Positions 1 through 51,008 are shown, numbered from the stretch's first letter. The stretch is DNA of 64,000 nucleotides from Minutocellus sp. GHC0000111 (GCA_977018835.1 OZ361256.1:3348001-3412000), one strand, 5' to 3'. The notes: generated from the sequence alone by a model not told the origin. Made by a program: numbers and translations.

Positions 1-223
1 CTTGGGTGCGAACCCTTCGCTTCTGTGTCGATTGAGTCGACAACGTGGCCGGCTGGCATGGCTGGAGCATCGCTCCCGCCAATGGTCTTGGATCACCCAT
101 TCTCATCATGTGTTGGTGGATCTTGACATGGTAATGAATACCTAATGGTTACGGTGGCGAGTTACTACGCACTTGCGCTCTTTCTTAACCAACGCGACCA
201 GAAAATTAATTCAGCTACCGAGC

Positions 224-2257
224 ATGTTCTCATCCGCTACTTCGAAGGCTACTTTGGCCCTTCTGGCACTTCTGATCTTCCTTACACTTATTGCATCCAT
301 GTGGCATGTGGCGCCTCTGGTTCACAATCTTCCGCCATCCTTTGATCTGTATTCTACTGAATATGACGCTGCTGATATCCGAGCGCCGACTGCTGTCGGT
401 TGGAGACTCCGTCTAATAACCAGAATCATCGTCTCCAGTCCCCTCGGCGACTTCTTGGCTCGGGCACTGTTGGTAAAGAATGGCGTGCCACAGCTCGTGG
501 ACTTTGCAGAGGAAATATCAAAGGATCTAGAAAACGACCACCCCAACGGAAAGGAATACATCATTGGCGAGCCACCCCTAATCCGACTGTCACCTGCCGA
601 CTATGCATGGCACGACGACGCAGCAAGGGCAGAGCCAAAAGAGGCAGCAAAGCGGTTGGAGGCCCACAGTATCCAAAACAACGAGACGTGTGACTCCAAT
701 ACCAAAAAGAAGTACAATTCCATTTACGACTATCATCGAGCATATGCAGGAAACATCACAACTCCGTCGAAAGTGATTGCCAAACTGTTGGCTTTTATCA
801 ACAAGACGGATTCAATATTGAGATGTGTTGAGAGCACGGACGTTGATGGTGCGACATTGGCCGCAGAGGCATCCTTAAAGAGATGGAGAGATGGAGAACA
901 ACGGGGCATTTGGGACGGAGTACCTGTTATGGTGAAGCCTGAAGTAATGGTTCAAGCTTTGCCGTATACATCGGGGAAACAATTCCGGGACGACAACTCG
1001 GACGTTGCGGCATATGATGATATAAATATCAAACGGTTAAAGGACGCAGGTGCAATTGTTGTCGCTTACACGACGATGCACGAGCTTGGAGTTCAACCCA
1101 CGGGCTACAGCCCATGGCATGGAGGTCCTAACAACCCACATGCTCTAAATCACTTTTCTGGTGGGTCTTCGAGTGGCTCGGCGGTGGCAGTGGCGACTGG
1201 CATGGTCCCCATAGCCCTGGGTCAGGATGGCGGTGGCAGTATTCGGATACCAGCAGCTTGGTCTGGCACAGTCGGTCTAGCCGCTGGGTATGGTCGCATA
1301 CCGTTTCGCAAGGGCAAGGAAAATATATATATTCACAGTCGCCAAGGCAGGTGTTCTGACTGCTACTGTCGATGACTCGCTGGAAGCTCTGCTTCTTATT
1401 GGACAGGATGTATCGGAGGAAGAAGGTGCTGACAACCATCCCATCCATGTCTCATACGGAGGCAACGGTATACCGCCTCCCCATTCTCGACCTCGATGGT
1501 CGAATGCACTTATGGATCGTCCGATTCGGATTGGAATATACTGGGACTGGGTAAGACACCGCCCTTCCGTGGCGTATGCTGGGACTACAGGCAGAGACGA
1601 CGCGGTTTATAAATCGTTCGTTGAAATGATCGACACACTAAAGGAAAACGGTGCTGGCAACGGTAGGAGTTTGAGGTAGTTAAGATCACTCTTCACCACC
1701 TGAGCACACAGGCCTTGGTCCGCGGTATACTCATTACAAGCATGTTTAGTTTCGCTCAAGTCAATGAGCTCTATCGAGGCAAGAACAGAAGGCAAAGTGC
1801 TCGATTGGACGACGACTTGCAACCTGCGACGGAAGTTCAGATCAAACTTGGTAGTCAGATCACAGCCCTGGAGATTATGGCCAGTTATCGGATTAGAAAT
1901 TGGGCGTTGGCTCAATGGAGGGCTGTTCTACAAGACGTGGACGTGATACTGGCGCCTACAACGCCGATGACGGCACTGGTTCGACCACCCAGTAGCGATG
2001 TGATCGGATTGTCTGATACCGGCCTTTTTGTCCAAATGATGAGATTTATATGGCCAGGGAATCTTGTTGGATTGCCTGGTCTCGCAGTTCCCATCGGCAC
2101 AGATTCCGATGGCCTCCCTCTTTCAATACAGGTGCTTTGTAATCACTGGCATGAAGCAGAGTGCATATCGGTAGGTGGCGTTATCGAGAGCTTGAGTGCT
2201 GTTTCCAAGCCGATGCCTCCCGAGAAATTATTTGTTGACTTGCTCGGAAATAATTGA
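224..2257 (+). CDS. Amidase-signature family enzyme (fatty acid amide hydrolase-like), N-terminal TM anchor
   Basis: Amidase signature SGGSSSGSAVAVATG...GQDGGGSIRIPAAWSG, plus VPVMVK and C-terminal GNLVGLPGLAVPIG. Split over three ORFs by apparent indels near 1325 (ATATAT run) and 1665. Confidence 0.85.
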
Positions 2258-2604: not shown

Positions 2605-3870
2605 TTACTCATACTTGAAGGATTCCTCCTCACCGGCAATGTATCGGTTGGCAACAATGTTGCACAGCTCGGCCATGCGCTTGGAATATCCAGCCTCATT
2701 GTCATACCAGGCATAGATCTTCACCAGCGTACCGTCAATGACCTGCGTACTGAGCGCATCGATGATGGAACTGCGGGTGTCGTTGGTGTAGTCCGTCGAC
2801 ACGAGGGGCTTCTCCTCGTAGCCCAGAATGCCCTTGAGCGGACCGGACTCACTGGCCGCCTTGAGGGCGGCATTGACCTCCTCCTTGGTGGTGGGCTTCT
2901 CGACCTCAAAGACGCAGTCGGTGAGACTGGCGTTGAGGAGGGGGACACGGATGGCCAAGCCGTTGAGCTTGCCCTTGAGCTCGGGATAGATCTCGACGAT
3001 GGCAGTGGCAGAGCCGGTGGAGGTCGGGCAGAGGTTGAGCATGCCCGACCGAGCACGACGGAGGTCGGACTTTTTGGTTTTGGGCATGTCGACCAGCTAT
3101 GTGCGGAGGCGGAGGAACAATCAATTGGTGCGGTGCAATTGCAAGATTTGCAGAAGAGAACACAAGATGTGCCGGAAATGGAATGAGATTGTGATGACGA
3201 AAGATACGACCAAAATCATATCGGGTGCGCCTTGTATATGCCGCAAGAAAGCAGTGCGCCAAAGTAAACATCGTGCATATATACAAATAAGGTCAACTGA
3301 ACTCACCGTCTGGGTACCGGTAACGTCATGGACGGTGGTAATGCATCCGTGCTTGATGCCAAAGTTCTCCTTGACGACCTTGACGACGGGAGCCAGGCAG
3401 TTGGTAGTGCAACTGGCATTGGTCACGAGCTTCTGCTCCTCCTTGAGGAGACCGTGGTTGCACCCCAGCACGACGTTGAGGGCCTCGGGTTCCTTGACGG
3501 GGGCCGAAACGACGACGCGCTTCACACCGCATTCGGTGAAGTACGGCTCGAGCGTCTTGACCTTGAGGAACTTGCCGGTGCATTCCATCACCATGTCGAC
3601 GCCCATGGCGGCCCAGTCGACCTTGGTGAAGTCGGCCTCCTGGGAGAAGGTGACGGTCTTGTCATCGACGGTGAAGGAATTGCCGTCGACCTGGTCGACC
3701 TTGTGATTCCACGTGCCATGAACAGAGTCGTACTGGACGAGGTACGAGGCCGATTCGCAGGAGCAGAGGTCGTTGACGTGGACGATTTCCAGGGAGGGAT
3801 CGTCCCATGCGTAGCGGAACACGAGACCGCCGATGCGGCCGAAGCCATTGACTGCACACTTGATGGGCAT
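2605..3870 (-). CDS. Glyceraldehyde-3-phosphate dehydrogenase, ArsJ-associated type; 2 exons (3870-3307, 3096-2605), about 351 aa
   Basis: NGFGRIG, catalytic [10 protein letters not shown]. Subfamily-type motifs [49 protein letters not shown] and WYDNEAGY. Intron 3306-3097 (GTGAGT...ATAG) joins the exons in frame. No targeting peptide. Confidence 0.9.
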
Positions 3871-4378
3871 GGTTGGAGCAGGAGAGGTGAGGCCGAGGGG
3901 TGGTAAAGTGAAAGTAGAAAGTGACGAATGAGGATGACAGATTTAGCGGCTGGCGGCGAATCTCGAATCTCGGCACTCGGGACGAATCTCGAACTGTGAA
4001 GGTAATATATTTGTAACAAGACCTTGTAGTCTAATTATTTCCCTTTCTCCCCATTGTGATTAGGGTATTTCGTTTGACAATATTTGTAATGCATCCCCTC
4101 CACGAGTTTCGCTGAAGGCGCAAATGAGGTCGCATCAGCCCAGCTGGCTGGCAGTCGCAGCTCTGCAGTTGGAGACAAGTCACATTGAGTTGACGATTGT
4201 TCGTGGCGATTGCTGCAGCTCTGCGCTCACCTTCTGAGCAGCTTCAATCACCCCGTATCTTTCTTTCTGGCGCAGAAGTCTCCTATCAGGGCAGCACGCA
4301 TTCTCTACTGACTTGCCGTTGATCAAGAACGATCATACGAAAACACAGTCCGGCAAAGACGAGGAGCGAGCAACAAAC
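3871..4378. promoter_or_regulatory. Divergent (bidirectional) promoter region between GAPDH and arsJ, with 3x CGAATCTC(G) at 3957, 3964 and 3983
   Basis: ATGs at 3870 (-) and 4379 (+) point away from each other. Three copies of a 9-mer lie within 35 bp. Confidence 0.6.
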
Positions 4379-6344
4379 ATGACCAAGGCATTGTATGACA
4401 AGTTTGAAGATGGTGGCGACAATGAAGATCAATTCGCGGACGAGGTCGTTGCCGCTAACAATGAGGATCAACAGCAGCAAGATGAAGAGTCGCCCGAGGC
4501 CGCGGCAGCTCCTCAGTTTGAACCAACCGCCGAGCAGGCCGTCAGTGCCAGCAGCAGCGGCACGACCCCAGCCTCGTCCAAAAAGAAGGGGGGAGACTCC
4601 AACACGGGCAACATTTCCTTCAAGGATCTGACGTCCGACCACCTCCGCCCGTTCGCCATCATCTCCACGTCGTATCTGCTCTTTACGGTGACCGACGGTG
4701 CCATCCGCATGATTGTCCTGCTCCATGCGTACAATCTCAACTTTTCCGCGTTGGAGGTGGCCATCATGTTTACCTTGTATGAGCTGGCGGGCGCCGTCAC
4801 CAACCTGCTGGCGGGTGTCATGGGTGCCAAGTGGGGCATCAAGCTGACGCTAATTACCGGCCTCACGTTGCAGTTGGCCGCCTACGGCATGTTGTTTGGG
4901 TGGAATCCTGACTGGTCCAAGGGTCAGGCCACCTTGTTTGTTACCTTTGCCCAAATGTTGGCGGGTATTGCCAAGGATTTGACCAAATTGGGCGGCAAGA
5001 CGGTGACCAAGCTGGTCACACCGGAAGAACAAAACACCCGGCTGTTCAAGCTCGTCAGTCTCATCACAGGTTGGAAGAACAGCCTCAAGGGCGTCGGTTA
5101 CTTTCTGGGAAGTGCCCTCATCGGTGTATCGTACGAGTTGGCGCTGGGCTTCATGATGGGCCTCATCGTTTTGGCCATGCCGTGGGCAATCCTTGGGCTG
5201 GACAGCAAACTGGGCACGGCCAAGAAGAAGAATTCGACGCTGAAGGAAATTTTTGTCATGGACAATCAGCAGCTCAACGTGCTGAGTTTGGCACGGTTGT
5301 TTCTGTTTGCGTCGCGTGATTTTTGGTTCGAGGTGCCGTTGCCGTTTTATCTGCGAAGTCCAGGCTGCGAAGGGCTGGGCACCGACCCATGTATGGACAA
5401 TTCGGACTGTACTCGAGGTGCCGCCTGTGGCATGGAGAGTGGAGTTTGTGAGAATTTCAATGATGGCGGCGGATGTGGCGGACTGGGTGTTCAGAGTGTT
5501 GTTGGTGAGTATATTGCACATGACGAATGACAAATATCAAGTACAACTACCCCCTTGAATACTATTTTCCTCTCGTCGTTTGTCTCATTAATTTGTCATA
5601 TCCTCAAATATTCTCACCTCTTAAATCAGTCGGCGCCTTCCTTGGAGGATACATCATCCTTTATGGTCAGGTGCAGAGCTGGACTCCGCAACTGGTCACT
5701 GGACCATTGGGCCAAACACCACCCAATAAGCTCACGGAAGTGCTTTGGGGAATCATCAACTGCATCCCAACCCTTGTAATGGGGTTAGTGATGTCGTTTT
5801 CACCCGTATTCTTGGAATACAACGTCAGTGGAATGATCGGGTGGCTAATCTCGTCCATCGTTGCGTTTGCCATCATTTTCGCCATCAATTCCAGCATCCA
5901 TTCCTATCTCGTTGTGAAGTATGCCAAATCTGACAAGGTGGCGGTCAGTGTTGGCTTTTACTATATGAGTAACGCCCTTGGCCGATTGATGGGTACCATT
6001 GGATCTGGTCTGATCTTTACTTATGTTGGCGAATATTTTGGAGAATTTGTTGGTCATGATGGTACTGCGGGATTGGCTGCGTCTACTTGGCTGGAACCCT
6101 TTCGAGTGCAGCGGCTGCATTCATCACCACCTTCATTGATGACGATGAGGGTGGCTTGAAATGTGGAAATATGACTTGTGTTCATGCTGAGATAGAAGAA
6201 AACGAAGATGCTGAGAATGAATCAGGCGGCGATGGCAAAGCAAACGGAACGAAGGAGACCGATGAGAAAAAGATGTCGCAAGCGCAGGAGATGTCGCAAG
6301 CGCAGGAGTCTACCCTAAGTGCCTCTGCAGTATCATCAGCATGA
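4379..6344 (+). CDS. arsJ: ArsJ-like MFS transporter (organoarsenical efflux permease); intron 5505-5629; probable 1-nt indel near 6083
   Basis: Motifs FTVTDGAIRMIVLLH, YELAGAVTNL, AQMLAGIAKDLTKLGGK, TGWKNSLKGVGYFLG, RLFLFASRDFWF, FAINSSIHSYL and VGFYYMSNALGRLMGT match bacterial ArsJ as I recall it. The GTGAGT...TCAG intron restores V|VGAFLGGYIILYGQVQ. Confidence 0.85.
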
Positions 6345-6397: not shown

Positions 6398-7979
6398 CTA
6401 CGCTGCTACAGATGATCTTACCCTTCGGCGAACGTTTCGTTTCTTGAGGGGAATGTGCAAATCTTCGGGGTCTCGGCCGTGGCAAAATGGAGCCTGGCTC
6501 TTCATACAGACACGGTGTTTGGCCCGAGCAAAGGCCCGTGCTGTCCGGCCGGTCGTGCTGATGGCATGACGAAGAGGCCTGGGGATAGAGCCGTTGTTCG
6601 CAAGCAAAATCGAGTTTATGTCGAGATACCGGTTGAGGGAGTAGGGATTACGCTCCTGTAATGCCATGGTTTTCTTTTGTGGGAGGATCGACTGCGAGGA
6701 GAAGTACACCATTTCCTCGTATTCGAATTCATCCTCTTTCCATGGTTCATCCAACAAAGCTAGGGCAATGGCTTCAATGTAATTGCCAAGGATGTCAAGA
6801 TTATAGCCTCCTTCCAGGGCCACGACGAGGGGGGTGTTTCGGCCAGCGGCGTCCAACAGAGAATTTGTAATAGCATAGTATGCGTCCGGCGTCAATTTGC
6901 AGTCCCCAAGCAAATCACCCTCGGCTGCATCGAGGCCTGCCGACACGAGTATCAAGTCGGGCTTGAAGGCTCTTATGGCTGGCTCAACCACCTGTGTCAT
7001 GGCCACTGCATACTCCGAGTTGCCCATACCGCTCTGTTCCCACACGATATTTAGATTGGTTCCCAACGCATCTCCCTTGCCAACATCGTTCACGGATCCT
7101 GTACCGGGATAGAACCAGGAGGACCGCTCAGCGTCATCACTATGGACCGAGTTGCTTGCTCGATGTATTGACAAATAGAATATGTTTGGGTCGTCGTAAG
7201 TCAACCCCTGCGTTCCGTTCCCGTGATGGATATCTAAATCAAATATAATCACCCGCGAGGCTCTTTTGGTTGCAATTGCATGCTTTGCCGCGATTGCTAC
7301 ATTGCCAAAGTAGCAGAATCCTACGAAATGACATGCAGTTGATGGTGGGAGGGCATGAATGTGAATTAGGGTTCTCATTGGTGACATATACTGTTTTTGG
7401 CCATTCGTGAGGATCGACTCGACTTACCCATAGGCTTATTGCGCAATGCGTGATGACCCGGTGGACGGACCAAGGCCAGCGACCTCGTTACTTGAGAATT
7501 TGACTCGGTACAGGCATTTACACACTCGACGACACCCCCAGCAGCCAATGATGCGGCCTCGAATGTGTGTGAATTATAATATAGATCGCTCGGATCGGTC
7601 AGGTTCACATGCTCATCGTTGGTCATAAGAGCCGTGCTTTGAATGAAATTGTAATGGTCTGGACTGTGCGCGAGGAGGATCGTATCTCGCGACGCAGGAC
7701 GGCAGGGGAGCGATATGAGTCGTCTAGTTGTGGGCGAAGTGGAATGGCGCGAAAGATATTCGGCAAGACTCGTTTGCGACATCCAAGGATACTGACGCTG
7801 CAGGAGCGTCCATTCCATCTCCTGCAGGCGTTCCAACAGAGCTGTCAATCTAGGCGCGGTTTCGACGTATTGTTCTGCATCGTCGGCGTACCTAGGTAGT
7901 CTGTATCATTGATTTTTGGCTGTTCGGGAGGCGCATGGAGGCTCATTCGAGCGTCGGTGCATACATAGATGGAAGTCAT
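6398..7979 (-). CDS. Histone deacetylase, class II-like; intron 7427-7321
   Basis: RPPGHHA, G|FCYFGNVAIAA, DLDIHHGNGTQ, SAGLDAAEGDLLG and LEGGY motifs. The 5' end needs one frameshift near 7890. Confidence 0.85.
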
Positions 7980-9100: not shown

Positions 9101-9759
9101 ATGGTGTGATGGTTCCTACAAAAAAGGCCTGCTTTCGGAAGAATGACTCAGGAAAAAGTACCGGTACATCATGTGCAGAAAACCATAGAGACAATTTAGA
9201 TTGAACATAATCACTTTATAGCTAGAACATTTGCGATCGATACATTGCATTAGGTAGAGTTTGGTTGGGCGTGCATCGGTTCCATTCGTTGCCGAACTTG
9301 GTGCATTGGCCATAACACACTTGGCTGGAGCCGCACAACAAGAAAAGGAAAGCCGCACACAACTGCGGACGCTTGGATGACGCCGACGGCGAGGTTTGAA
9401 AGGGTTCAAAGAAATTAGAAACTTTTAACGCGCAACGTATATTAATACTGACAAAGTGAAAATAATTATTTAACATGTAATTACTTGATAACTAATTCAT
9501 CCGAACTCCAACGATGGCATCAGATGATGTGCTCGACGACGTCCTTTGTTCCCCACCAGCCAGCCAGCCAGCCAGCCACCACTCTGTGTGCGACGAAATC
9601 AAAAACGGCGTGCCCTGCCCTCTGCTTTGCTCCCGCTCAGTCCCTTTGGCCCTTACCAGATACCAGATACAAGGCAATAGGCGGCTGGATTGGACACTCG
9701 AAGCAGTTATCATGTCTCTTGTCCATCCCATCAATCCATAGCTGAGCAGATATTGAAAC

Positions 9760-10695
9760 ATGGTGGTCTACCGCCACGACAAGCGAGCGGGCAATTTTGG
9801 TGACGTTCACAAACACATCGCTCTGCTCTCTGCCCTGTCGGCGACCACTGCAGCAGCATCAAATCGAAAAGTATTGTACATCGAAACTCATGCCGCATCT
9901 GGTTCGTACGAGAGTACGTCAAGCAAGTCCGAGGACACGGGAGTCGGCCGAGTGCTGGCCGCCGATGAGTCACATGCTATTTTGTCACAAGACATCCAGG
10001 CATATGCGGATGCGATCAAAAGATATCGTAATGGCGGGGCAAAATCAAAGCATCGATATCCAGGTTCGCCAGTGCTGGCCCTCTCGTGCTTGCGGTCAGG
10101 AAGAGATGAAGAAATGTGCGCGGAATATCAGCAAGACGTTGCAAATGAATTGTCACATACTCTCACTACATATCAAGAGGAAAATGACACATCGGTAGCG
10201 ACGACAGTAGAAGTAGGAGATGGATACGCTGCCATGCGAAGGAAGATGGCCAGCCTGACCAAAAATGACGAAGACGCAAAGAGCACGGTGCCGTTTATTC
10301 TTATCGACCCGCCATATACGGACCTACAAAGTGAGCTGGACGATGTACCAATGGCAACCAGAGATTGTATCGCTGCGTCATCGGAGTCCATCATAATGAT
10401 ATGGTATCCAATCAAGAAGGGTCGTGACGACATCCTCTTGTCGTGGAAGGGAGACCTCGCGTCAGCTATCCGGGGAAAGCCGCATCGTCTCGTGCTTAGT
10501 GAAATCTGGACCAGTTCGCGAACAAACCAATCAAATGGATGCAAAGAGGACGCTCTGGTGGGATCAGGGATAGCACTAATTCATCGCCATGACGACGTGA
10601 CTGATAAATTGATGTATTTGACCAAGGGGCTCAACGATATTCTGTCTTCTGATGATAAGCAAAGAATTGGGAGCTGGAGTGTGTTGGAATGCTAG
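9760..10695 (+). CDS. rlmJ: RlmJ-like (23S rRNA m6A2030) adenine methyltransferase
   Basis: N-terminal YRHDKRAGNFGDVHKH, then YIETHAASGSY, YPGSP, catalytic LIDPPY and IWYPI. Intronless. Confidence 0.8.
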   Translation: MVVYRHDKRAGNFGDVHKHIALLSALSATTAAASNRKVLYIETHAASGSYESTSSKSEDTGVGRVLAADESHAILSQDIQAYADAIKRYRNGGAKSKHRYPGSPVLALSCLRSGRDEEMCAEYQQDVANELSHTLTTYQEENDTSVATTVEVGDGYAAMRRKMASLTKNDEDAKSTVPFILIDPPYTDLQSELDDVPMATRDCIAASSESIIMIWYPIKKGRDDILLSWKGDLASAIRGKPHRLVLSEIWTSSRTNQSNGCKEDALVGSGIALIHRHDDVTDKLMYLTKGLNDILSSDDKQRIGSWSVLEC

Positions 10696-27975: not shown

Positions 27976-29292
27976 CTAAGCATTGCAGGCCGGGTTGCCC
28001 CATTCCTTGCAGGTCTTACCCAGATGAATAGACGAGCAGAAAGCTTGAAGGCCAGATCCAGAGCAACTCGCGATGCCACTGGGACAGTCCGGGCCATCGC
28101 AACAGCTGCATGGGTCGAAGGTGGAGTAAAAGCAGCTGTTACTGCCATTATTGTTCTCACAAACGACGGCCGACGCAAGGAAGTCACTGTATTTACAAGG
28201 CCAGTCCTTCTCCTTGAGGCAAGACACTTCGCTGCGATGGAACTCAGCTCCGTAGCACGAGCTACCGCCATAGCAAGAGACAACCGAGTCGGCGAACTCG
28301 GCAGATTTGCAAGCTTGCTCGTCTTGGCAGTACACCGTGCATTCCTCTACCTCAAGCTCGACGCAGCTATCATCGGCAGTGCAGTAGTGGTGGTCGGATC
28401 TAAGGGAGCATGTAGCATCAGACGTAACAATAGTAGGAAAATTGGGCTCAGAAGATGGTTCCTGGTTGTCGGTGGTAGGTGTGGTCGGGGTAGTACTGGC
28501 AGGTGTGCTTGGAGTAGTACTGGCAGGCGTGTCAGGTTGAACGTAAACGGAAGTTTCTTTCTGTGGCTCTTGTGGTTTGGCAGTATTACCGCCATCACTG
28601 GTGGGGGCGGAAGGCGTGCCGCCTTGAGGGAGGACTTCAGATCCGGTGTTGGGTTCGGTAGCAACAACATCGGGGGTATCTTCATCCTCAGCTACGGGAC
28701 AATCACCTCCATCCCAGTCGCACTGCTCGGTGCTATATTCATCTCCATCGCACTTCCCGTCCCCAATCAACGACGGATTGGGCACGTGGCAATTGGGATA
28801 CATCGTATTGTAATAAATACAATCGCCTGCATCCCACAGACATTCTGCAGTGTTGTACAGCCCTCCGTTGCACATGCCATCACCGACGAGAGATGGATTA
28901 GGAACCTTGCAGTCTGGCAAAAGAGGATGGGCCTTGACGTTTGCAGTACTGGAGCGAGCACTGTCATCCTCCCCGCAACAGGATTTTGGTGTAAGAAGAA
29001 TCGCCAGAACAACGCCGACTGCAGCGACGACAAGTACCGCAAGCGATACGAGGAGGACCTTCTTGCGGGTGCAGCACTTGCCAGAGCCGTCCTCTGACTT
29101 TGACTTGGCTCCAGCCGAATCGATGACGATACCACCAACTTTGGCGTCACGAACGATGGGGACGGCGCTGGTAACTGGCATGGTATCCAAATCGATGGCG
29201 ACACTGCCGTTGTTGGCGGCAGGCTCGTCAGGTGGGGCAAGGTCGACCTTCGCCTGAGGCGGGGCCGACGGGCTGGGCTGCGTGTTGACCAT
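27976..29292 (-). CDS. Type II membrane protein with two LNR (Lin-12/Notch)-like repeats and a Cys-rich C-terminal domain
   Basis: TM VLLVSLAVLVVAAVGVVLAIL; two C.V..P...GDG.C.G..Y.T..C.WD.GDC units. Confidence 0.75.
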   Translation of the reverse strand: MVNTQPSPSAPPQAKVDLAPPDEPAANNGSVAIDLDTMPVTSAVPIVRDAKVGGIVIDSAGAKSKSEDGSGKCCTRKKVLLVSLAVLVVAAVGVVLAILLTPKSCCGEDDSARSSTANVKAHPLLPDCKVPNPSLVGDGMCNGGLYNTAECLWDAGDCIYYNTMYPNCHVPNPSLIGDGKCDGDEYSTEQCDWDGGDCPVAEDEDTPDVVATEPNTGSEVLPQGGTPSAPTSDGGNTAKPQEPQKETSVYVQPDTPASTTPSTPASTTPTTPTTDNQEPSSEPNFPTIVTSDATCSLRSDHHYCTADDSCVELEVEECTVYCQDEQACKSAEFADSVVSCYGGSSCYGAEFHRSEVSCLKEKDWPCKYSDFLASAVVCENNNGSNSCFYSTFDPCSCCDGPDCPSGIASCSGSGLQAFCSSIHLGKTCKEWGNPACNA

Positions 29293-30927
29293 CGTTGCTT
29301 ATACTCTACGGCCGCGGTGTTGAACAAGCAAGAAGAACATATGAGAATCAATCAGAACGAAATCACTGGTGGGCATACAGATTTTGATCCGAGAGTTGTG
29401 CAATGCATTCAGGACACGATACGATGTGGATTCTTGTCATAACATTCAGTACTTCTTCAAATGCTGCATATGATCGCAGCCAACTCACCAATTTGATTGC
29501 TTTGCTTTTTGTTTGATTCGCTTCGTTCGTTTGTTGGACTTCTCAAAGTCGAATCAAAAGAAGAGCCGTCCAAGACCTCATTCGGTCGGTCGAGCAGCAA
29601 GCCAACCTCGCCGCCGTCGGTGCCAGCCCGGCCTCCACGCGACCCGAGGAAGACCTTGGATGGAACCTGCGATGTTGGCCCATTGGACCGCTAAGATACC
29701 GGAAACATTGCCCGAAACATAAGTAGAATTGCATAGTGCGTCGTCCCTGCGCTGGTCTAGTCCCTAGCCATGCTGGCTGCACCGATGACGGCTTCAAAGC
29801 ACATCATGTGCCATGCGGTCCGCTGGTCGGCATCAAGGCCTCGCATGCCCAGACACCCGATGGACCCAGGCCAACGTCCAAACTTTCACCACCTGATTAC
29901 CTTCAGTTCCTTGCTACAGGTGCATGTTCAGGACGATGGTGCTACCGAAAAGCATCACTAATTCCCCTCAAATAGTCACACTCCACGCCGAGGGAGAGGC
30001 CGGGTGCCGTCCATCGCATGCGGTGGATGTTGGAGCAGCCTGTCATCCGCTGGTCTGCCAAATCGACCAAACACAGCTCAGGTGTATGCCCACGTTGAGG
30101 GATCGTATAATACCGCCAATGGCATCATTTCCAACCAACGGTGGAGGCAGCATCACGCCGCTTCGACACCTCATCTTCGTCATGGCAATCCACCCAAAAC
30201 GAGCCTGCCCGCCAATTGGAATGGCAGGCTCGATGCGAAGCCAAAAATTCAAACCAGGTTTGGCGGGAGCGGAAGAGCCGTCGTCGGCCGACCTGCCTCG
30301 AAACCGGAGGAAGGTTCATAAATCGAATCAGAACACTGATGTCAACTCAAAGTGAAGGTACGCAAACCATGTCGACAGAGTCTGTGATTAGTATGGTGCT
30401 TTCGATGGAACAACGGAATGAAATCTCACATTATGCGTCTACTTTGCGAATCCGCTCCTCCTACTTTCGTCTCTCACACTCTCGTGTGCGACAGACAGCA
30501 GAACATACATTGCCAACACAATCGACCTGAATCAACGATCACCACCAGCTTTAACGGCCGAAGAGGTGAGAAGCAGAGGCAGTGTCGTTTCGTTTTAATT
30601 GCTCACTTTTGAGTGATCATACTGTAGACGATGGACAGCGGTCGTTTGGACCGAGATACTACGCAGTAAAAGTAGTCCATGCACATCAGGGTCGGCGAAG
30701 ATGATACATGGAAATGATCCTCTTTGTACTATTGTAATTTGACGCAAGATTTACCCATTCAGAACGAATCTTCTCATGCACTCTCACATTACATTACATC
30801 TAGGTATTCCAACTCGCGACTCTACAATTATACATCTGATACAAAAAACTGTCAACTCAATCGACGATCTAGGATTCCAAATTCATATTGAAAGCCAATC
30901 GTTAGATCAAATCATCAGCAAATCACA

Positions 30928-32976
30928 ATGGATCCCGACGGAGACTACGAGAGCCGCCACAGCACCCGATCAATCGGCGGCATACTTTCGAAAGACGCCA
31001 AACTTGACGACGTCGATGAGAGCAACAAGAAGTGTGATGAGGATGGATTTTATGACTGCCAGGGAAACGACGAGGAAATGGGCCTCAAGCCAAGTCCGAA
31101 AGGCAATATATCCAAGGTAATTCTGTCCGATGAAAAGGAGGGTAGTAGCGACTTGAAAGCGTCAGCCCCATCAGCAGTCGATCTAGGATGCCTTCCCTCG
31201 GCCCCGCCACTTGAATCATCGCTGCATCCATCTCCAGAGGACGATGCAACTGCTCCTACCACCCCCGAAAGCAGCCACCCTCCCGAGCCTCCTGGCTTCA
31301 AAGAAGATCCGACTGAGGGAAGCAATACTATCCCCGGTAGCGTTGCTCTCCCTATTGGTCTGGACAACGCCGATAGGACACTGCCTGTTGCATCGGTGGT
31401 TCCTATCATCACAGACGCGACGGGTGCTGAAAATGCGACTCCTCCAACCCAGCCGACGGTGTCTTCTTCAACAAGAAATCATAATGATTCTGCAAATGCT
31501 CCACCTCAGGAACAGTCTACTAGTCCCACCAACTACACCGCCGATCGAGCTCCCTCTCGCCGCGTCCTGCCGTATCTCCGCCCAGTGCCGACTCACCCAG
31601 CTCATGACGAGCGAGAGAAGAAAGGTAGTCAAGGCTGGAAATGCACGCCGTGCAAAAAAGCTTTATGCCTTGCTGTCATAATCATAGTCGCAGTGGTTGC
31701 TGTCGGCCTAACAATCGCCCTCAAGCCAAAAGAAGCCGAGCCCTCCTTTGCGTCACTTTATCCAAACTGCCATGTGCTTCATAAGGAGTGGATTGGGGAT
31801 GGTGAATGCAATGGTGGAAATTACAACAAACGCGGTTGTGGGTGGGACGGTGGCGACTGCATAAAGGAAGACTGGCCTTACTGTCATGCCAATACTCCAA
31901 AAGCGTTTCGCGGACTTGGAAATGGAAAGTGCAATACTGCATTCAACGTGGTTGAGTGTGGTTTCGATTTAGGAGACTGTAAGCCGTACTGGAGCAAAGA
32001 AGATGTCGAAAAACTAAAAGACTTGGAGAATACCTACCCTAGATGCTACTTTGATGGCATGGTCATGGGCTGGTTTGGTGATGGAGTTTGCGATGGTGGA
32101 TTGTACGATCGCGAAGTTTGTGGCCACGATGGAGGCGACTGCATCGTTCAAGGCTACCCTGACTGTCAAGTCGACGACCCACCCTATATTGGCGACGATG
32201 AATGCGACGGAAGGCAATACAACACCGAGGAGTGTGGCTGGGATGGCGGTGATTGCGTAGACTTCAATCGGCAGTATCCCAACTGCGAAGTTGAAACTCC
32301 CTATTATCTTGCAGACGAATTTTGTCACGGTGGTCGTTACAACACCGAGGAGTGTGGTTGGGACGGAGGCGACTGCGTTGAGGGCTACCCCAATTGTCAA
32401 GTTACGGACCCAAATAAAGTTGGCGACGGAAGCTGTGACGGCGGAGAGTACAACACCGAAGAGTGCGGCTGGGACGGAGGTGACTGCCTGATTGCCGAGT
32501 GGCCCAACTGCCACATTGACAACCCAGGTGGTCTGGGCAATGGCCTATGTAACAAAGGATCCAAGGCCGACGTCGTGGAGTGTGGGTTTGATGGGGGAGA
32601 CTGTACAAATTTAGGCATTGACGACATCAAGGAACTGCTGAGAAGATATCCCAATTGTCGTGGCGACAATGCGCGTGTGGCTGGAATGAACGATGGCTGG
32701 TGCATGAACAGCAATGATAATGCCGAGTGCGGCTGGGATGGGGGAGACTGTCTCTTCGAAAGGAAAAACAACAAGTTCAATGGATCAGTCCGCTCCACAT
32801 GGTCCAACAAAAGTCGCGCCTGGTGCCAGAATAAATGCCTTGACGAAGGCAGCAGCTGCAAAGCTTACGATATAGGCGCCTACTCGGAGGGTGAAACGGG
32901 AAGGTGCAGGATCTTCAGCAGGTACTCTTCCAGTTCTTATAAATACGATTCCAAATGTTACAAGAAGAAGAAGTAG
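30928..32976 (+). CDS. Type II membrane protein with 8 LNR-like repeats and a C-terminal PAN/apple-like domain
   Basis: TM LCLAVIIIVAVVAVGLTIAL; eight ...CG(W/F/H)D(G/L)GDC units; WCQNKC...CKAYD...CRIF. Confidence 0.8.
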   Translation: MDPDGDYESRHSTRSIGGILSKDAKLDDVDESNKKCDEDGFYDCQGNDEEMGLKPSPKGNISKVILSDEKEGSSDLKASAPSAVDLGCLPSAPPLESSLHPSPEDDATAPTTPESSHPPEPPGFKEDPTEGSNTIPGSVALPIGLDNADRTLPVASVVPIITDATGAENATPPTQPTVSSSTRNHNDSANAPPQEQSTSPTNYTADRAPSRRVLPYLRPVPTHPAHDEREKKGSQGWKCTPCKKALCLAVIIIVAVVAVGLTIALKPKEAEPSFASLYPNCHVLHKEWIGDGECNGGNYNKRGCGWDGGDCIKEDWPYCHANTPKAFRGLGNGKCNTAFNVVECGFDLGDCKPYWSKEDVEKLKDLENTYPRCYFDGMVMGWFGDGVCDGGLYDREVCGHDGGDCIVQGYPDCQVDDPPYIGDDECDGRQYNTEECGWDGGDCVDFNRQYPNCEVETPYYLADEFCHGGRYNTEECGWDGGDCVEGYPNCQVTDPNKVGDGSCDGGEYNTEECGWDGGDCLIAEWPNCHIDNPGGLGNGLCNKGSKADVVECGFDGGDCTNLGIDDIKELLRRYPNCRGDNARVAGMNDGWCMNSNDNAECGWDGGDCLFERKNNKFNGSVRSTWSNKSRAWCQNKCLDEGSSCKAYDIGAYSEGETGRCRIFSRYSSSSYKYDSKCYKKKK

Positions 32977-46078: not shown

Positions 46079-46533
46079 ATTAGGGCCGGTTATACCGCTG
46101 GAGTAACGTAGATAGTCTAAATAAGCACCCGCCGGTCTGAGAGAAGATGGATGGACAGTCGGGCATGGACGGGTGACTGACTTCTGTTGTGTTTTCATTG
46201 CATTGAATCAAATAAAAATGTACAATTCTAATTAGATCTAGTACCAGTATAAAATCAAGTAAGTGTCGATAACTTCAAGGTAGAGACTGTATCAGAACGC
46301 GTTGGTTGCTTCTTATAGATCTAGTATGAGCCGCGAAGGTTTCTTCCTCTCCAGGCTGGCTTTGCTTTTTGGCCGTGAAAGAATCCCTACGTGTACGTGT
46401 ACGTGCTACGTAGTACAGATGCACACGAGAAGAAGGACAGACCATTGCCATGTTGGGGAGTGCCCCGCTCGATGACGCGGAAAATCGAGCAGGAAACCGA
46501 CACAACTAACTCAACTCAACTCAATCCGCAACG

Positions 46534-49506
46534 ATGGCGAGCACGATCGCCGCCGCCTCCTCCGCCGGACGGCGCTCCCTGTCGGCCGGAGCCGCCGCCG
46601 CGTGGCGCCGGCGATGGCGGTACGACACCACCGCCGCCTCCAATACTTCCTTGCTAGGCGCCGTATCTACTGACTATACGAGCTCGGCGCATCCTCGCCG
46701 GTACGCGTCGTCGTCATCGTCATCGTCACCGAATTCGGCAGGTGGTCGTGCCGCTGCTGCGTCAGTGGACGACTGCCGGCGGAACAACAATGGTCAATAT
46801 GATGCCAATGGCAACACTTGTAACCACTACAACCACAACCAACAACCCGAGGCGGGCAGCATCGCCATCCCTCTCGATCCCTCTGCGTTTCAAACAACAA
46901 CAACGTCGGCCCTCGGCCTTGCCGATCTGCTCCTGCCGCACTCGCTGTCGGCGAGTCTAGATTCGCTGGGCCTGTGGAACGCCCGCGTGCCCAGGGGATT
47001 CGAGAACTTTGTCCCCAAGAAGGACCTGAAGAAAGGCGGTGCCGGTGGTGGTGCGTCGGAAGACGGAGGCAAGGATGGCAGTACCGAGAGCGGTGATGAT
47101 GGCAATAGCGGCAAGGACGCCGACAAGTCTACTCCCAACAAGGAAGATGAAAAGGAGGGCTCCCCCTTCGGCAACGTCTTTGGCTCCCACTCCTCCAACA
47201 ACAACGGCGATAAGAAGAAGCAATCCTCCTCCGGAAGTGAAGGATCCGGCGGAGATCCCAACGGCGGAGGACCCTCGCAGCAATCCCTGGCCGCGTCCTT
47301 CCTCCTCCTCGCCATCGTTTACCTCCTGCTCCAACTCACCGACGACGAGAATTCCCAATCCGGCGGAGGAGGCGACGCGCGAGAGATCACGTGGAGCGAA
47401 TTCTACAACCACCTGCTCGAACCCGGCCAGGTGGAGAAGATTGTGGTGACCAACAAGGGGACGGTGGCGAGGGTGTTTTTGAAGCCCGGTGCCAGGGGGT
47501 TGCCCGCGGGATATGCCGGTAGGGGTGGGGCGTTTGCGGGTCTGACCGGAGGTGGTAGAGGTAGAGGTGGTATGGGCCAAGGCGGTGGTGCTGGTTCGAC
47601 GTCCGGGTCGGCCGGGCACTTTGACGACGACACCGTCATGGAGATGGGGGCCGGCAGCGGTGCCAATGGCACCACCACCTCCTCCACCCCCCTCAATGGC
47701 CTCGGCGGCATCCTGTCCAACCGCGGCGGTCAGCTCCCCACCGCCCACCAACCCCAGCTCGTCTACCGCTTCGCCATCGGCTCGGTCGATTCCTTCGAGC
47801 GCAAGCTCGACGAGGCCCAGCGCGAGCTCAACGTCGATCCGCGCGACTTTGTCCCGGTCCAGTACGCCGCCGATTCCACCGTGGCCACGGAACTTCTCGG
47901 CGTCGTCCCCAGTTTGCTGTTGGTGGGGGTCATGTTTGCCATGCTCCGCGGTGCGGCCGGTGCCGCCGGCGGTGGACCGGGGGGACCCGGCGGCATGTTC
48001 AAGTTTGGCAAGTCCAACGCCAAGAAGATCAGCAAGGAGGACGTCCACGTCAACTTTCGCGACGTGGCGGGATGTCAGGAGGCCAAGAAAGAGATTATGG
48101 AATTTGTCGACTTTTTGCAGGATTCCACCAGGTTTACGAAACTCGGTGCCAAGATCCCCAAGGGGGCGCTGCTGTGCGGTCCGCCGGGTACGGGTAAGAC
48201 GCTTCTGGCCAAGGCCGTGGCAGGTGAGGCCGGTGTGCCTTTCTTTTCCATTTCGGGTTCGGACTTTATCGAGATGTTTGTCGGTGTCGGTCCCTCCCGC
48301 GTCCGTGATTTGTTCAAGGAGGCCCGTTCCTCGGCACCGTGCATCATCTTTATTGATGAGATCGACGCCATCGGTCGAAAACGTGGCCGTGGTGCTGCCG
48401 GTGGCAATGACGAGAGAGAAAATACTTTGAACCAATTGCTGGTGGAGATGGATGGCTTCAATCCTTCGTCGGGAGTTGTTGTTCTTGCCGGTACCAACCG
48501 AGTGGACATCCTGGACGAGGCCCTGACCCGACCGGGACGATTTGATAGGCAAGTTGTGGTGGACAAGCCCGATTTGCAGGGTCGCAAGGAGATTTTCCTT
48601 GTGCATTTGCAAGGCATCACTCTCGATGGGGAGCCAGAAGACGTTGCCGGTCGGTTGGCTGGTCTCACACCTGGCTTTGCCGGAGCTGACATTGCCAATA
48701 TCTGTAACGAGGCCGCAATTGTAGCTGCCAGGCGCAAGGCCGACACGGTCGCCATTGAGGACTTTGAGAAGGCCACTGATCGAGTCATTGGCGGTCTCGA
48801 GAGCAACAAGATCATCTCCAAGCAAGAAAGAGAAATTGTGGCGCATCACGAGGCCGGACACGCCGTCGCTGGCTGGTTCCTCGAGCATGCCGACCCTCTG
48901 CTCAAGGTGACTATCATTCCTCGAAGTAGTGGAGCACTCGGCTTTGCGCAATACCTCCCCAAGGAAGTCTTTCTGCGAACAGAAGAGCAAATCATGGACA
49001 TTGTCTCGATGGCACTCGCCGGTCGGGCAGCTGAGGAGGTATTCTTTGGTGATGTCACGACCGGCGCTAGTGATGATCTGCGAAGAGTCACCGATCTCGT
49101 CTACTCAACCATCCAAATGTACGGCATGAACCCCAACGTTGGACAGCTTGCCTTCCCCAAGGACCCCAACGCCTTCTTTGATGAGAAGCCCTACTCGGCC
49201 AAGACGGCCAAGATCATGGACGAGCAGGCCCGTGAGATTGTCGACAAGGCTTACGAGCGAACGGTCAATCTCATCCGAGAGAAGAAGGCCGAGGTCGAGG
49301 CTGTCGCCAAGAGCCTTCTGGAGAAGGAGACGATCGTGCACGACGATATCATTGAGCTGATTGGACCTCGACCATTTAAGGCAGATCCCGCGTACGAAGA
49401 ATTCATCAAGAGAAGACAAGCCGACAAGGAAGCTCACAAGGATGACGACAAGAAATCCGAGGAAGATTCTGAGTCGAGTGAAGATGAATTGAGGATGCTG
49501 GTCTGA
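46534..49506 (+). CDS. AFG3: Mitochondrial m-AAA protease (AFG3/paraplegin-type FtsH)
   Basis: FtsH_ext domain between two TMs, Walker A GPPGTGKT, Walker B IIFIDEID, SRH TNR...RPGRFDR, and HEAGH. Confidence 0.92.
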   Translation: MASTIAAASSAGRRSLSAGAAAAWRRRWRYDTTAASNTSLLGAVSTDYTSSAHPRRYASSSSSSSPNSAGGRAAAASVDDCRRNNNGQYDANGNTCNHYNHNQQPEAGSIAIPLDPSAFQTTTTSALGLADLLLPHSLSASLDSLGLWNARVPRGFENFVPKKDLKKGGAGGGASEDGGKDGSTESGDDGNSGKDADKSTPNKEDEKEGSPFGNVFGSHSSNNNGDKKKQSSSGSEGSGGDPNGGGPSQQSLAASFLLLAIVYLLLQLTDDENSQSGGGGDAREITWSEFYNHLLEPGQVEKIVVTNKGTVARVFLKPGARGLPAGYAGRGGAFAGLTGGGRGRGGMGQGGGAGSTSGSAGHFDDDTVMEMGAGSGANGTTTSSTPLNGLGGILSNRGGQLPTAHQPQLVYRFAIGSVDSFERKLDEAQRELNVDPRDFVPVQYAADSTVATELLGVVPSLLLVGVMFAMLRGAAGAAGGGPGGPGGMFKFGKSNAKKISKEDVHVNFRDVAGCQEAKKEIMEFVDFLQDSTRFTKLGAKIPKGALLCGPPGTGKTLLAKAVAGEAGVPFFSISGSDFIEMFVGVGPSRVRDLFKEARSSAPCIIFIDEIDAIGRKRGRGAAGGNDERENTLNQLLVEMDGFNPSSGVVVLAGTNRVDILDEALTRPGRFDRQVVVDKPDLQGRKEIFLVHLQGITLDGEPEDVAGRLAGLTPGFAGADIANICNEAAIVAARRKADTVAIEDFEKATDRVIGGLESNKIISKQEREIVAHHEAGHAVAGWFLEHADPLLKVTIIPRSSGALGFAQYLPKEVFLRTEEQIMDIVSMALAGRAAEEVFFGDVTTGASDDLRRVTDLVYSTIQMYGMNPNVGQLAFPKDPNAFFDEKPYSAKTAKIMDEQAREIVDKAYERTVNLIREKKAEVEAVAKSLLEKETIVHDDIIELIGPRPFKADPAYEEFIKRRQADKEAHKDDDKKSEEDSESSEDELRMLV

Positions 49507-49607
49507 CTCCTGGCATGGCGTAAACCTTCTGGACTGTGCATACTCGCGTAGCTAACTACTGTATAGACATTGTGCAATATTTACAGTATGCTTACAACTA
49601 CCTCTAC

Positions 49608-50855
49608 TCACTTTCTGGAATATGTGAATACGCTTCTCCAACTATTGCTTGGCTGGGCTTTCGTCCAAGATGTTGGTAATCTCGTAAGAAGGGGTACCAT
49701 GGCAACGCCGAGTGCCTTCATTCGTCGAAGTTGAGCCAATGATGTTCCGAGGCTGCTATTGGCAACTATGCCAAGTGAAGAGCCAAGCTCGGCACTACTT
49801 CCCAGGCCAGCCCCGGGCTGCTTGGTGATGATTCTGATCATTCCTGACACAACACCAATAAGGGCAATTCGTGCAGCGGCCGTCAATACTGGGGATTCAT
49901 CGGTCGTATTGCCAGGACGATATTCCACAGGAATGAAGTTACTTCTGTCTCGGCCATATTTCCGCTGGACGTCTTCCAGCTTGCGTTCGAAGGATGCATC
50001 TATGGAAAGGCGGTATACTTTTTGTGGTTGGCCGTGTGAACTCCTGCTGGGTGCTTCGATGCCATCATGATGAAAGTTGGTGGAGCTCCAGGGGATGCTG
50101 CCTGTTTTTGTCGACTCTTCGTCGTCAGGTTTGGCATCTCCAAATTGCATTTGTGTTGTATTGTTATCAATAATATTGTTTCGTTGGTCTTGCTCCGATT
50201 TCTGGGCATTGCCGCGTGCCTTCTCCTTACCATCTTCATTGCTAGTTTCCTCCAAAACATAAATTCTAGCCGCCGTATTGTTATCGGTAACAACAATTCT
50301 TTCCACCTTGCCGTCATGTACGAGCTGTAGCAGATCCACCCACGTAGTCTCCGTGGACATTACCGCATGTTCGGCCTCGTCATCGATATGGCTGAGGACG
50401 TACAGGCCCATAATGGCGGCAAGGGCCGAAATGTAGGCGCAGGTTGGTACCTCGTGATTGTTGCGATTGTTGTTGTTTCCGCCACGACCAAAGTTGCCGC
50501 CGCCGCCGCCGCCACTGTGGCCACTTGAATTATTTTTGTGATTTGATTGCCGACCATCGCTCGCGGCCGATATGACAGGGGCGCTTGTGGAGTGCGAACT
50601 TGCCACGAAAGAACGGATCTGCCTCCTTTGTCCACCCAGTATGTTCTGAGAATGTTCTCGCTTGAGAACAAGACATGAGAATGAGCGGCTGCTGCAGCTC
50701 GCAGGAGAGGCATTCGAGAGAGATGAAGAAACAGTCGCCAGCGCCGCTGGTCGACGGGCTGCAGCTGAACGTAGCATTGCTGTCAAGGGTCTGCTCACGG
50801 TAGTGGCTCTTGGGACGAGCGAGAACGCAAATGTGGACGGCGTCATTGCTGCCAT
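49608..50855 (-). CDS. AFG3-derived protein with only presequence + TM + FtsH_ext domain + TM (no AAA or protease domain)
   Basis: TTWVDLLQLVHDGKVERIVV and VYRLSIDASFERKLEDVQ...FIPVEY align with ITWSEF..GQVEKIVV and VYRFAIGSVDSFERKLDEAQ...FVPVQY of the neighbouring AFG3. Confidence 0.7.
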   Translation of the reverse strand: MAAMTPSTFAFSLVPRATTVSRPLTAMLRSAAARRPAALATVSSSLSNASPASCSSRSFSCLVLKREHSQNILGGQRRQIRSFVASSHSTSAPVISAASDGRQSNHKNNSSGHSGGGGGGNFGRGGNNNNRNNHEVPTCAYISALAAIMGLYVLSHIDDEAEHAVMSTETTWVDLLQLVHDGKVERIVVTDNNTAARIYVLEETSNEDGKEKARGNAQKSEQDQRNNIIDNNTTQMQFGDAKPDDEESTKTGSIPWSSTNFHHDGIEAPSRSSHGQPQKVYRLSIDASFERKLEDVQRKYGRDRSNFIPVEYRPGNTTDESPVLTAAARIALIGVVSGMIRIITKQPGAGLGSSAELGSSLGIVANSSLGTSLAQLRRMKALGVAMVPLLTRLPTSWTKAQPSNSWRSVFTYSRK

Positions 50856-51008
50856 TCTTGACTTCGCTTCGACTTGTCCGTGTCACTTTTATTTTTCATG
50901 GTGCGTGGCGCCAAAAAGGATGACGCCGATGGTCGCGACTAAGGTATACAAAGCGTGAAAAGCCCCCCGCGTATTCAGCAGATCCAAGGCGCGTCGCTCA
51001 GGACCTCA

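What the first reader, a model, noticed from the sequence alone, without database searches (positions are those of the whole stretch)
2605..6344. Eukaryotic gapdh-arsJ arsenate-efflux module as a head-to-head, intron-containing gene pair
Seen in sequence: a GAPDH carrying motifs of the ArsJ-associated subfamily ([30 protein letters not shown]) lies 508 bp from a divergently transcribed MFS permease with ArsJ motifs (TDGAIRM, GIAKDL, KNSLKGVG, FASRD, NSSIHSYL, VGFYYMSNA). Both genes have spliceosomal introns. Established knowledge: in bacteria such as Pseudomonas aeruginosa DK2, gapdh-arsJ are co-operonic; GAPDH converts arsenate plus G3P to unstable 1-arseno-3-phosphoglycerate, which ArsJ exports, giving arsenate resistance without reduction. 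Inference: this alga keeps the same two-gene pathway, rebuilt as a bidirectional eukaryotic cluster and probably of bacterial origin. I recall related neighbourhoods being proposed in green algae, so novelty for diatoms needs a literature check.
Basis: partly seen in the sequence, partly recalled or inferred. Interest (0 to 1): 0.93.

Follow-up and report, generated by a model that had tools for sequence, protein, structure and literature searches.

The report
Diatom arsenate-export gene pair
A diatom carries, back to back, a special GAPDH enzyme and an ArsJ-like membrane pump that likely work together to expel arsenate taken up by mistake when phosphate is scarce; the same module is already published for bacteria and green algae.

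Summary
An ArsJ-associated GAPDH (minus strand, 352 aa, intron seen spliced in RNA) and an ArsJ-like MFS gene start 508 bp apart, head to head. The host is a diatom. In trees the GAPDH joins green-algal GAPDH3 inside the bacterial ArsJ-linked clade, not GapC. The pump joins green- and red-algal ArsJ-like proteins but scores below the bacterial ArsJ cut-off, as they do. The pairing recurs in 4 of 11 distinct informative relatives, so it is shared but not universal. The spacer holds a conserved GAATCT cluster, recalled as the diatom phosphate-starvation motif. The Phaeodactylum orthologue of the GAPDH is induced about 50-fold by phosphate deprivation in published data. Arsenate export itself is inferred. 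The module is published for green algae (PMC7826186), and this scan noted it before in other diatoms. Verdict: a new member of a known kind, with no PGK neighbour and a six-cysteine loop; modest interest.

The parts
3307..3870 (-). GAPDH3 (ArsJ-associated GAPDH) exon 1, residues 1-188, with catalytic Cys154 and His181; no N-terminal extension
   Evidence: NF033735 best hit, 226.3 bits
3097..3306 (-). GAPDH3 intron, 210 nt, GT..AG, phase 0
   Evidence: spliced in RNA contig of run X9
2605..3096 (-). GAPDH3 exon 2, residues 189-352 and stop
   Evidence: NF033735 best hit, 241.1 bits
3871..4378 (.). 508-bp spacer between the two start codons; likely holds both promoters. RNA contigs reach 3892 on one side and 4169/4179 on the other (weak hint of the transcript ends)
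3957..3990 (+). three CGAATCTC copies (3957, 3964, 3983); candidate phosphate-starvation element (identity with the PtPSR motif is recalled, not read)
4379..5504 (+). ArsJ-like MFS exon 1: acidic disordered N-tail, helices 1-7, six-cysteine loop
   Evidence: NF033734 237 bits
5505..5629 (+). ArsJ-like intron, 125 nt, GT..AG, phase 1
   Evidence: relatives read across the junction; not bridged by an RNA contig
5630..6344 (+). ArsJ-like exon 2: helices 8-12 and acidic C-tail; one base missing near 6082 in this assembly (about 613 aa when read through)
   Evidence: NF033734 115.1 bits

Best explanation
The two genes are a diatom copy of the GAPDH-ArsJ pair and likely form a low-phosphate arsenate-disposal shunt. 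Phosphate-starved cells would import arsenate through their phosphate transporters (established for algae generally). The cytosolic GAPDH3 would join arsenate to glyceraldehyde-3-phosphate to give 1-arseno-3-phosphoglycerate (inferred from the bacterial pair). The ArsJ-like pump would export this compound, which falls apart outside, so arsenate leaves without being reduced (inferred). The GAATCT cluster in the shared spacer would switch the genes on in low phosphate (inferred). Shown here: gene structures, subfamilies, linkage in relatives, motif conservation.
For: GAPDH: NF033735 is the best of 12 and of 9 families for the two exons; 6 of 6 full-length diatom relatives pass its cut-off of 450 (474-488 bits). 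The tree puts window plus 11 diatoms (SH-aLRT 100) next to Chlorella GAPDH3 (99) inside the clade holding all 31 ArsJ-linked bacterial enzymes (100); joining them to GapC is rejected, p-AU 0.011; 16 of 21 ArsJ-type diagnostic columns match. Pump: NF033734 is the only strong family; it groups with green and red algal proteins (100); a model of relative P0006 shows 12 long helices and an MFS fold. Linkage: head to head in 5 of 16 loci with 850 or more bases upstream, 4 of 11 after merging near-copies, in three separate diatom lineages, with different flanking genes in L003. Motif: 2-3 copies in each of the 4 distinct other spacers (3 to 21 of 2000 shuffles reach it), first copy 87-88 bp from the GAPDH ATG in window, L001 and L003. 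Published: Chlamydomonas arsJ mutant is arsenate-sensitive (PMC7826186); Phaeodactylum GAPDH_3 (Phatr2_23598; matches P0179 but for 2 residues) rises log2 5.64 at 48 h and 4.19 at 72 h without P, against 1.32 without N (PMC5825098 supplements); the Nodularia pair also rises in low P (PMC9846622).
Against: No arsenate assay exists here or, in my searches, for any diatom copy. The pump misses the curated ArsJ cut-off of 400 (5 of 5 full-length diatom relatives score 344-352). 7 of 11 distinct informative loci lack the linkage, and Epithemia's two copies lie on different contigs. The motif cluster lies much closer to GAPDH (87-120 bp) than to the pump's ATG (about 390-420 bp). I could not identify the Phaeodactylum ArsJ row in the low-P data, nor read the motif in any paper. 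5 of 21 diagnostic columns do not match. The pump's location in the cell is unknown. In this assembly the pump's last helix is frameshifted.
Confidence: 0.7

Rival explanations
1. The pair serves phosphate or carbon economy in P-starved cells rather than arsenic: GAPDH3 as a low-P glycolytic isoform and the pump moving a phosphorylated C3 acid or similar metabolite, possibly into the vacuole.
For: Strong low-P induction of the orthologue and the motif show a link to phosphate, not to arsenic as such. The literature lists Phatr2_23598 as a cytosolic glycolytic GAPDH. The pump falls below the ArsJ cut-off and has a diatom-type loop. Sugar-phosphate carriers (GlpT, G6PT1) appear among its structural neighbours, though at about the same scores as other MFS proteins.
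Against: Bacterial relatives sit in ars operons; the Chlamydomonas arsJ mutant is arsenate-sensitive; low P is exactly when arsenate enters (PMC4864187 passage); diatoms have separate GapC enzymes for glycolysis.
Confidence: 0.17
2. The function is arsenate export, but the adjacency here is a passive relic: the motif cluster drives GAPDH3 only and the two genes are regulated independently.
For: 7 of 11 distinct informative diatom loci are unlinked; the cluster is fixed at 87-88 bp from the GAPDH start in 3 of 5 spacers.
Against: The pair stays together while flanking genes differ; spacers stay short (255-579 bp); 6 of 8 other ArsJ upstream regions without an adjacent GAPDH also carry the motif, 9 copies against about 1.4 expected, which suggests the pump answers the same signal.
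Confidence: 0.1
3. In this strain the pump gene is a broken allele that has lost helix 12, so the module is decaying.
For: The window's own sequence shifts frame near 6082. GAPDH residue 15 is Gly where relatives have Arg.
Against: Two independent runs carry the missing base at full depth; the downstream frame is still conserved against relatives; the amidase next door has similar frame changes; both genes are present in RNA runs.
Confidence: 0.03

Closest known systems
Green-algal ArsJ-type arsenic-detoxification neighbourhood (ArsJ, GAPDH3, PGK3/PGK4A; Foflonker and Blaby-Haas, PMC7826186)
   Same: Same two gene families as nuclear neighbours; diatom GAPDH is sister to Chlorella GAPDH3 and the pump groups with green-algal ArsJ-like proteins; both lineages fall below the bacterial ArsJ cut-off.
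   Different: No PGK among 42 window ORFs scanned; the diatom pump has a 50-59-aa loop with six cysteines (110 of 110 parsed among 120 relatives) where green algae have 14-15 aa and none; GAATCT cluster in the spacer. The main text holds no occurrence of 'diatom'; its figures were not seen and its supplement was cut when stored.
Bacterial gapdh-arsJ pair of ars operons (Pseudomonas aeruginosa; Chen et al. 2016, not read, cited through PMC7826186; NCBIfam NF033735 and NF033734)
   Same: GAPDH subfamily and pump family; neighbours on the chromosome.
   Different: Tandem and co-oriented behind ArsR in bacteria; divergent, intron-bearing and without other ars genes here; pump has long acidic tails and the cysteine loop and misses the cut-off.
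Phaeodactylum tricornutum GAPDH_3 / Gapdh3 (Phatr2_23598)
   Same: Same diatom clade; 78% identical over exon 1.
   Different: Described in print as a third cytosolic glycolytic GAPDH, with no arsenate role in the passages I saw; its linkage to ArsJ was not tested.
Stand-alone arsJ of Cyanidiales red algae (PMC9812998)
   Same: One eukaryotic ArsJ-like clade with green algae and other eukaryotes (my).
   Different: Not clustered with GAPDH there.

Membership tests
ArsJ-associated GAPDH (NF033735; algal GAPDH3) | Best HMM match and score above the curated cut-off of 450 | tested here: met
   Exons score 226.3 and 241.1 separately (sum 467, not a joint score); 6 of 6 full-length diatom relatives 474-488.
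ArsJ-associated GAPDH (NF033735; algal GAPDH3) | Falls in the ArsJ-linked clade, apart from GapC and glycolytic bacterial GAPDH | tested here: met
   (quick tree, LG+G4, 73 rows); union with GapC rejected, p-AU 0.011. Plastid GapA/B sequences were not in the tree; only one green-algal row.
ArsJ-associated GAPDH (NF033735; algal GAPDH3) | Forms 1-arseno-3-phosphoglycerate from arsenate and G3P | not testable with these tools
   Catalytic Cys154 and His181 are present; activity needs an assay.
Bacterial ArsJ equivalog (NF033734) | Score above the curated cut-off of 400 | tested here: not met
   Exons 237 and 115.1; 5 of 5 full-length diatom relatives 344-352. All 8 members of the eukaryotic clade tested also miss it (189-389), including a green alga at 364; 9 of 9 from outside that clade pass (531-631). 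Filed as ArsJ-like, not as the bacterial equivalog.
Eukaryotic ArsJ-like clade | Groups with green-algal ArsJ-like proteins within the ArsJ family; 12-helix MFS fold | tested here: met
   (SH-aLRT 100 for diatoms plus green and red algae); model of P0006, pLDDT 82.3, MFS matches at TM 0.77. The Chlamydomonas protein itself was not in the tree; Edaphochlamys stood in.
Green-algal ArsJ-type neighbourhood | ArsJ-like and GAPDH3 genes are neighbours | tested here: met
   508 bp apart; 4 of 11 distinct informative relatives.
Green-algal ArsJ-type neighbourhood | Non-canonical PGK next to the pair (in most but not all green algae, so not obligatory) | tested here: not met
   No PGK family among 42 window ORFs, 9 of L003 and 2 of L019 or the flanking ORFs; ORFs under about 170 aa and the rest of the genome were not searched.
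Green-algal ArsJ-type neighbourhood | Loss of the genes makes cells arsenate-sensitive | not testable with these tools
   Shown for Chlamydomonas arsJ and pgk3 only.
PtPSR regulon | PtPSR-binding motif in the promoter and PSR-dependent induction | tested here: inconclusive
   A conserved, enriched GAATCT cluster is shown; its identity with the PtPSR motif is recalled from Sharma et al. 2020, which is not held; low-P induction is shown only for the Phaeodactylum GAPDH orthologue.

The most novel reading that the evidence does not exclude
Diatoms wire the arsenate-export shunt directly into the phosphate-starvation regulon through one shared PSR-type promoter, using a pump with a diatom-type disulfide cap and no PGK helper. 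The strongly low-P-induced 'glycolytic' GAPDH_3 of Phaeodactylum is then an arsenate-handling enzyme, and a major ocean phytoplankton group removes arsenate without reducing or methylating it.
Probability: 0.45. Interest if true: 0.55.

Novelty: new member of a known kind. Interest (0 to 1): 0.36.

Why it matters
If true, it gives a function to a diatom GAPDH that is read as glycolytic in phosphate-stress transcriptomes, and it adds a non-reductive arsenate exit to a dominant phytoplankton group living where arsenate competes with scarce phosphate. It is directly testable in Phaeodactylum, where gene editing and a PSR mutant exist. The mechanism itself is known from bacteria and green algae, so this widens a known system rather than opening a new one.

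Tried and rejected
Own-genome search: no genome is held, so copy number and a PGK3/4 elsewhere are untested. Viral carriage: no relative of the GAPDH in viral contigs (one scan, close relatives only). Solved ArsJ structure: 0 hits at E up to 1; GAPDH hits were ordinary enzymes. Eukaryotic GAPDH3-ArsJ fusion: the search of longer proteins gave 7 GAPDH+MFS records among the best 120; the two I read (P0438, P0444) look like bacterial read-throughs, and none is named as a eukaryote; weak evidence. Motif excess over the whole window: none (17 found, 16.3 expected); only the local cluster stands out, and the window's own p-value is post hoc because I chose the pattern after seeing the repeats. Literature: 'ArsJ GAPDH algae' gave 5 papers, 'ArsJ diatom' 2 irrelevant to diatom ArsJ (one read in passages, one seen as listing); searches showed no diatom ArsJ paper in their listings; the motif string was in no held paper. 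PMC12396336 and PMC3315573 had no hit for my terms. Two regular-expression checks of intron position failed for 3 of 4 loci and were redone by coordinates. The loop parser failed on 10 of 120 relatives and on most bacterial rows. RNA contigs leave 3893-4168 uncovered, which is only a weak hint of transcript ends. No complex prediction was run, as I do not claim that the two proteins bind.

Full report
Observation. The region holds two divergent genes. The GAPDH runs 3870-3307 and 3096-2605 on the minus strand (352 aa, 210-nt GT..AG intron); an RNA contig of run X9 joins 3096 to 3307. The MFS gene runs 4379-5504 and 5630-6344 on the plus strand (125-nt GT..AG intron). No RNA contig bridges that intron, but one stops at 5504 and relatives read across it. 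The ATGs are 508 bp apart and all quoted motifs are present. Runs X1 and X5 carry one more base there at full depth, and relatives P0005 and P0006 follow the longer frame. With two similar frame changes in the amidase next door, I read this as an assembly error.

Host. The named relatives among the best 120 hits of both proteins are diatoms such as Odontella, Eucampia, Nitzschia, Seminavis, Phaeodactylum and Thalassiosira. No whole genome is held.

The GAPDH. NF033735 (ArsJ-associated GAPDH) is the best NCBIfam match for both exons, 226.3 and 241.1 bits against 201.1 and 162.6 for general type I GAPDH. I could not score the spliced protein whole; 6 of 6 full-length diatom relatives pass the cut-off of 450. 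The tree had 73 rows: the window, 11 diatoms, Chlorella GAPDH3, 5 eukaryotic GapC, all 31 ArsJ-linked bacterial enzymes of 300 aa or more, and 24 of the 57 bacterial enzymes without adjacent ArsJ. The diatoms form one clade (SH-aLRT 100), sister to Chlorella (99), inside a long-stemmed clade (100) with all ArsJ-linked enzymes and 4 unlinked ones, some on cut contigs. Forcing the diatoms to join GapC costs 98 log-likelihood units, p-AU 0.011. The window matches 16 of 21 columns that separate ArsJ-linked from glycolytic enzymes. No bacterial donor is resolved. Cys154 and His181 are present and there is no targeting extension; the Phaeodactylum orthologue is labelled cytosolic (bioRxiv 10.1101/257790, passages).

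The pump. NF033734 (ArsJ) is the only strong family, but 5 of 5 full-length diatom relatives score 344-352, under the cut-off of 400. So do all 8 tested members of the eukaryotic clade, including the green alga Edaphochlamys (364), while 9 of 9 from outside it pass. I therefore call it ArsJ-like. In an 81-row tree diatoms, green algae (Pedinophyceae, Edaphochlamys) and the red alga Compsopogon form one clade (100), within a wider clade (100) that also holds Synstelium, Chrysoparadoxa and unnamed records. This agrees with the eukaryotic monophyly stated in PMC9812998 (passage) and argues against a diatom-specific transfer from bacteria. A model of P0006 (pLDDT 82.3) shows 12 long helices and matches MFS structures at 10-16% identity. 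Between helices 7 and 8 lies a well-predicted loop; it is 50-59 aa with six cysteines in 110 of 110 parsed relatives (of 120), 14-15 aa without cysteine in the named green algae and 12 aa in parsed bacterial rows. By standard MFS topology (established knowledge) it faces outside or a lumen, so three disulfides are likely.

Linkage. One metagenome scan gave 25 loci. Sixteen hold 850 or more bases upstream of the pump; 5 have the GAPDH head to head and 11 do not; after merging copies at 99% identity or more this is 4 of 11. Nine short loci were left out as uninformative. Spacers are 255-579 bp. The linked loci fall in three separate diatom lineages; unlinked ones lie near Seminavis, Epithemia and Thalassiosirales proteins; the backbone is unresolved, so gain and loss cannot be told apart. 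Epithemia's two named copies are on different contigs. Flanking genes differ between the window (amidase, histone deacetylase) and L003 (Cys/Met PLP enzyme, unknown). No PGK was found nearby.

The spacer. Three CGAATCTC copies lie at 3957, 3964 and 3983, the only cluster of three in the window. I chose the pattern YGAATCTH from memory of the PtPSR motif after seeing the repeats, so the other loci are the real test: L001 2 copies (6 of 2000 shuffles), L003 2 (7), L016 3 (3), L019 2 (21). The first copy is 87-88 bp from the GAPDH ATG in window, L001 and L003. GAATCT is also the second commonest 6-mer shared by 4 of 4 spacers tested, after a low-complexity CA run, and forms the longest conserved blocks near the GAPDH end between window and L001. 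Eight other ArsJ upstream regions hold 0, 1, 1, 0, 2, 2, 2, 1 copies against 0.08-0.26 expected each. Held papers confirm that a PtPSR motif exists (PMC13187674, passages) but none printed it, and Sharma et al. 2020 is not held.

Expression. Both genes are covered by contigs of two RNA runs from two studies, which shows presence, not level. In supplementary dataset S1 of PMC5825098 the Phaeodactylum orthologue Phatr2_23598 rises log2 5.64 at 48 h and 4.19 at 72 h without phosphate, against 1.11 and 2.46 for GapC2a, and 1.32 at 72 h without nitrogen. I could not tell which row is its ArsJ. In Nodularia the GAPDH rises log2 1.57 and 2.41 and ArsJ 0.29 and 1.20 under P limitation (PMC9846622, passage).

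Mechanism. Best reading (0.7): low phosphate induces the pair; GAPDH3 arsenylates G3P; the pump exports the unstable product; arsenate leaves unreduced. Gene structure, families, linkage and motif conservation are shown. The chemistry is inferred from Chen et al. 2016 (not read; cited through PMC7826186) and from the arsenate-sensitive Chlamydomonas arsJ mutant. Rivals: a phosphate- or carbon-economy role (0.17), passive adjacency (0.10), a broken allele (0.03).

Novelty. The eukaryotic neighbourhood is published for green algae (PMC7826186: passages, section 5 and supplement searches seen; figures not seen). I found no paper on the diatom pair, but the library lacks most subscription journals. 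This scan already noted the pair, the motif and the cysteine loop in other diatoms; those notes are unchecked leads, and I tested the points myself. It is a new member of a known kind with a few diatom-type features.

Noticed in passing
window 3097-3306 versus L003, L016, L019: The GAPDH intron sits after Thr188 in the window and L001 but one codon earlier, after Gln187, in L003, L016 and L019: a likely 3-nt intron slide.
   Followed up: partly
window 3826-3828: GAPDH residue 15 is Gly where relatives have Arg (GRIGR motif). Run X1 shows the Arg codon; RNA runs X6 and X9 agree with the window, so both alleles seem to exist.
   Followed up: partly
window 146-2257 (+): Amidase gene (PF01425) with two frame changes near 1320 and 1670 and no clear intron; probably assembly indels.
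   Followed up: partly
window 6398-7905 (-): Histone deacetylase-domain gene convergent with the pump; not found beside ArsJ in any of the 25 related loci.
   Followed up: partly
window 9757-10695 (+): ORF matching RlmJ/RsmJ rRNA methyltransferase (PF04378, E 2.7e-20), a mostly bacterial family by my recall; possible organelle-targeted or transferred gene.
   Followed up: no
proteins P0285, P0293, P0299: The eukaryotic ArsJ-like clade includes an amoebozoan (Synstelium), Chrysoparadoxa and a 'Clim' record (recalled as Corallochytrium, a holozoan), so the family reaches beyond algae.
   Followed up: partly
protein P0330 (Compsopogon cluster): 872-aa red-algal ArsJ-like protein with about 425 extra C-terminal residues that match no NCBIfam family.
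   Followed up: no
window 46510-50882: FtsH/M41 AAA protease ORF (998 aa) facing a second ORF with a weak FtsH_ext match; also LNR/Notch-repeat ORFs at 27976-32976.
   Followed up: no
L027 1726-2823: In Leptolyngbya, as in the Nodularia table, a periplasmic phosphate-binding protein gene lies directly before gapdh-arsJ, another tie between this pair and phosphate uptake.
   Followed up: no
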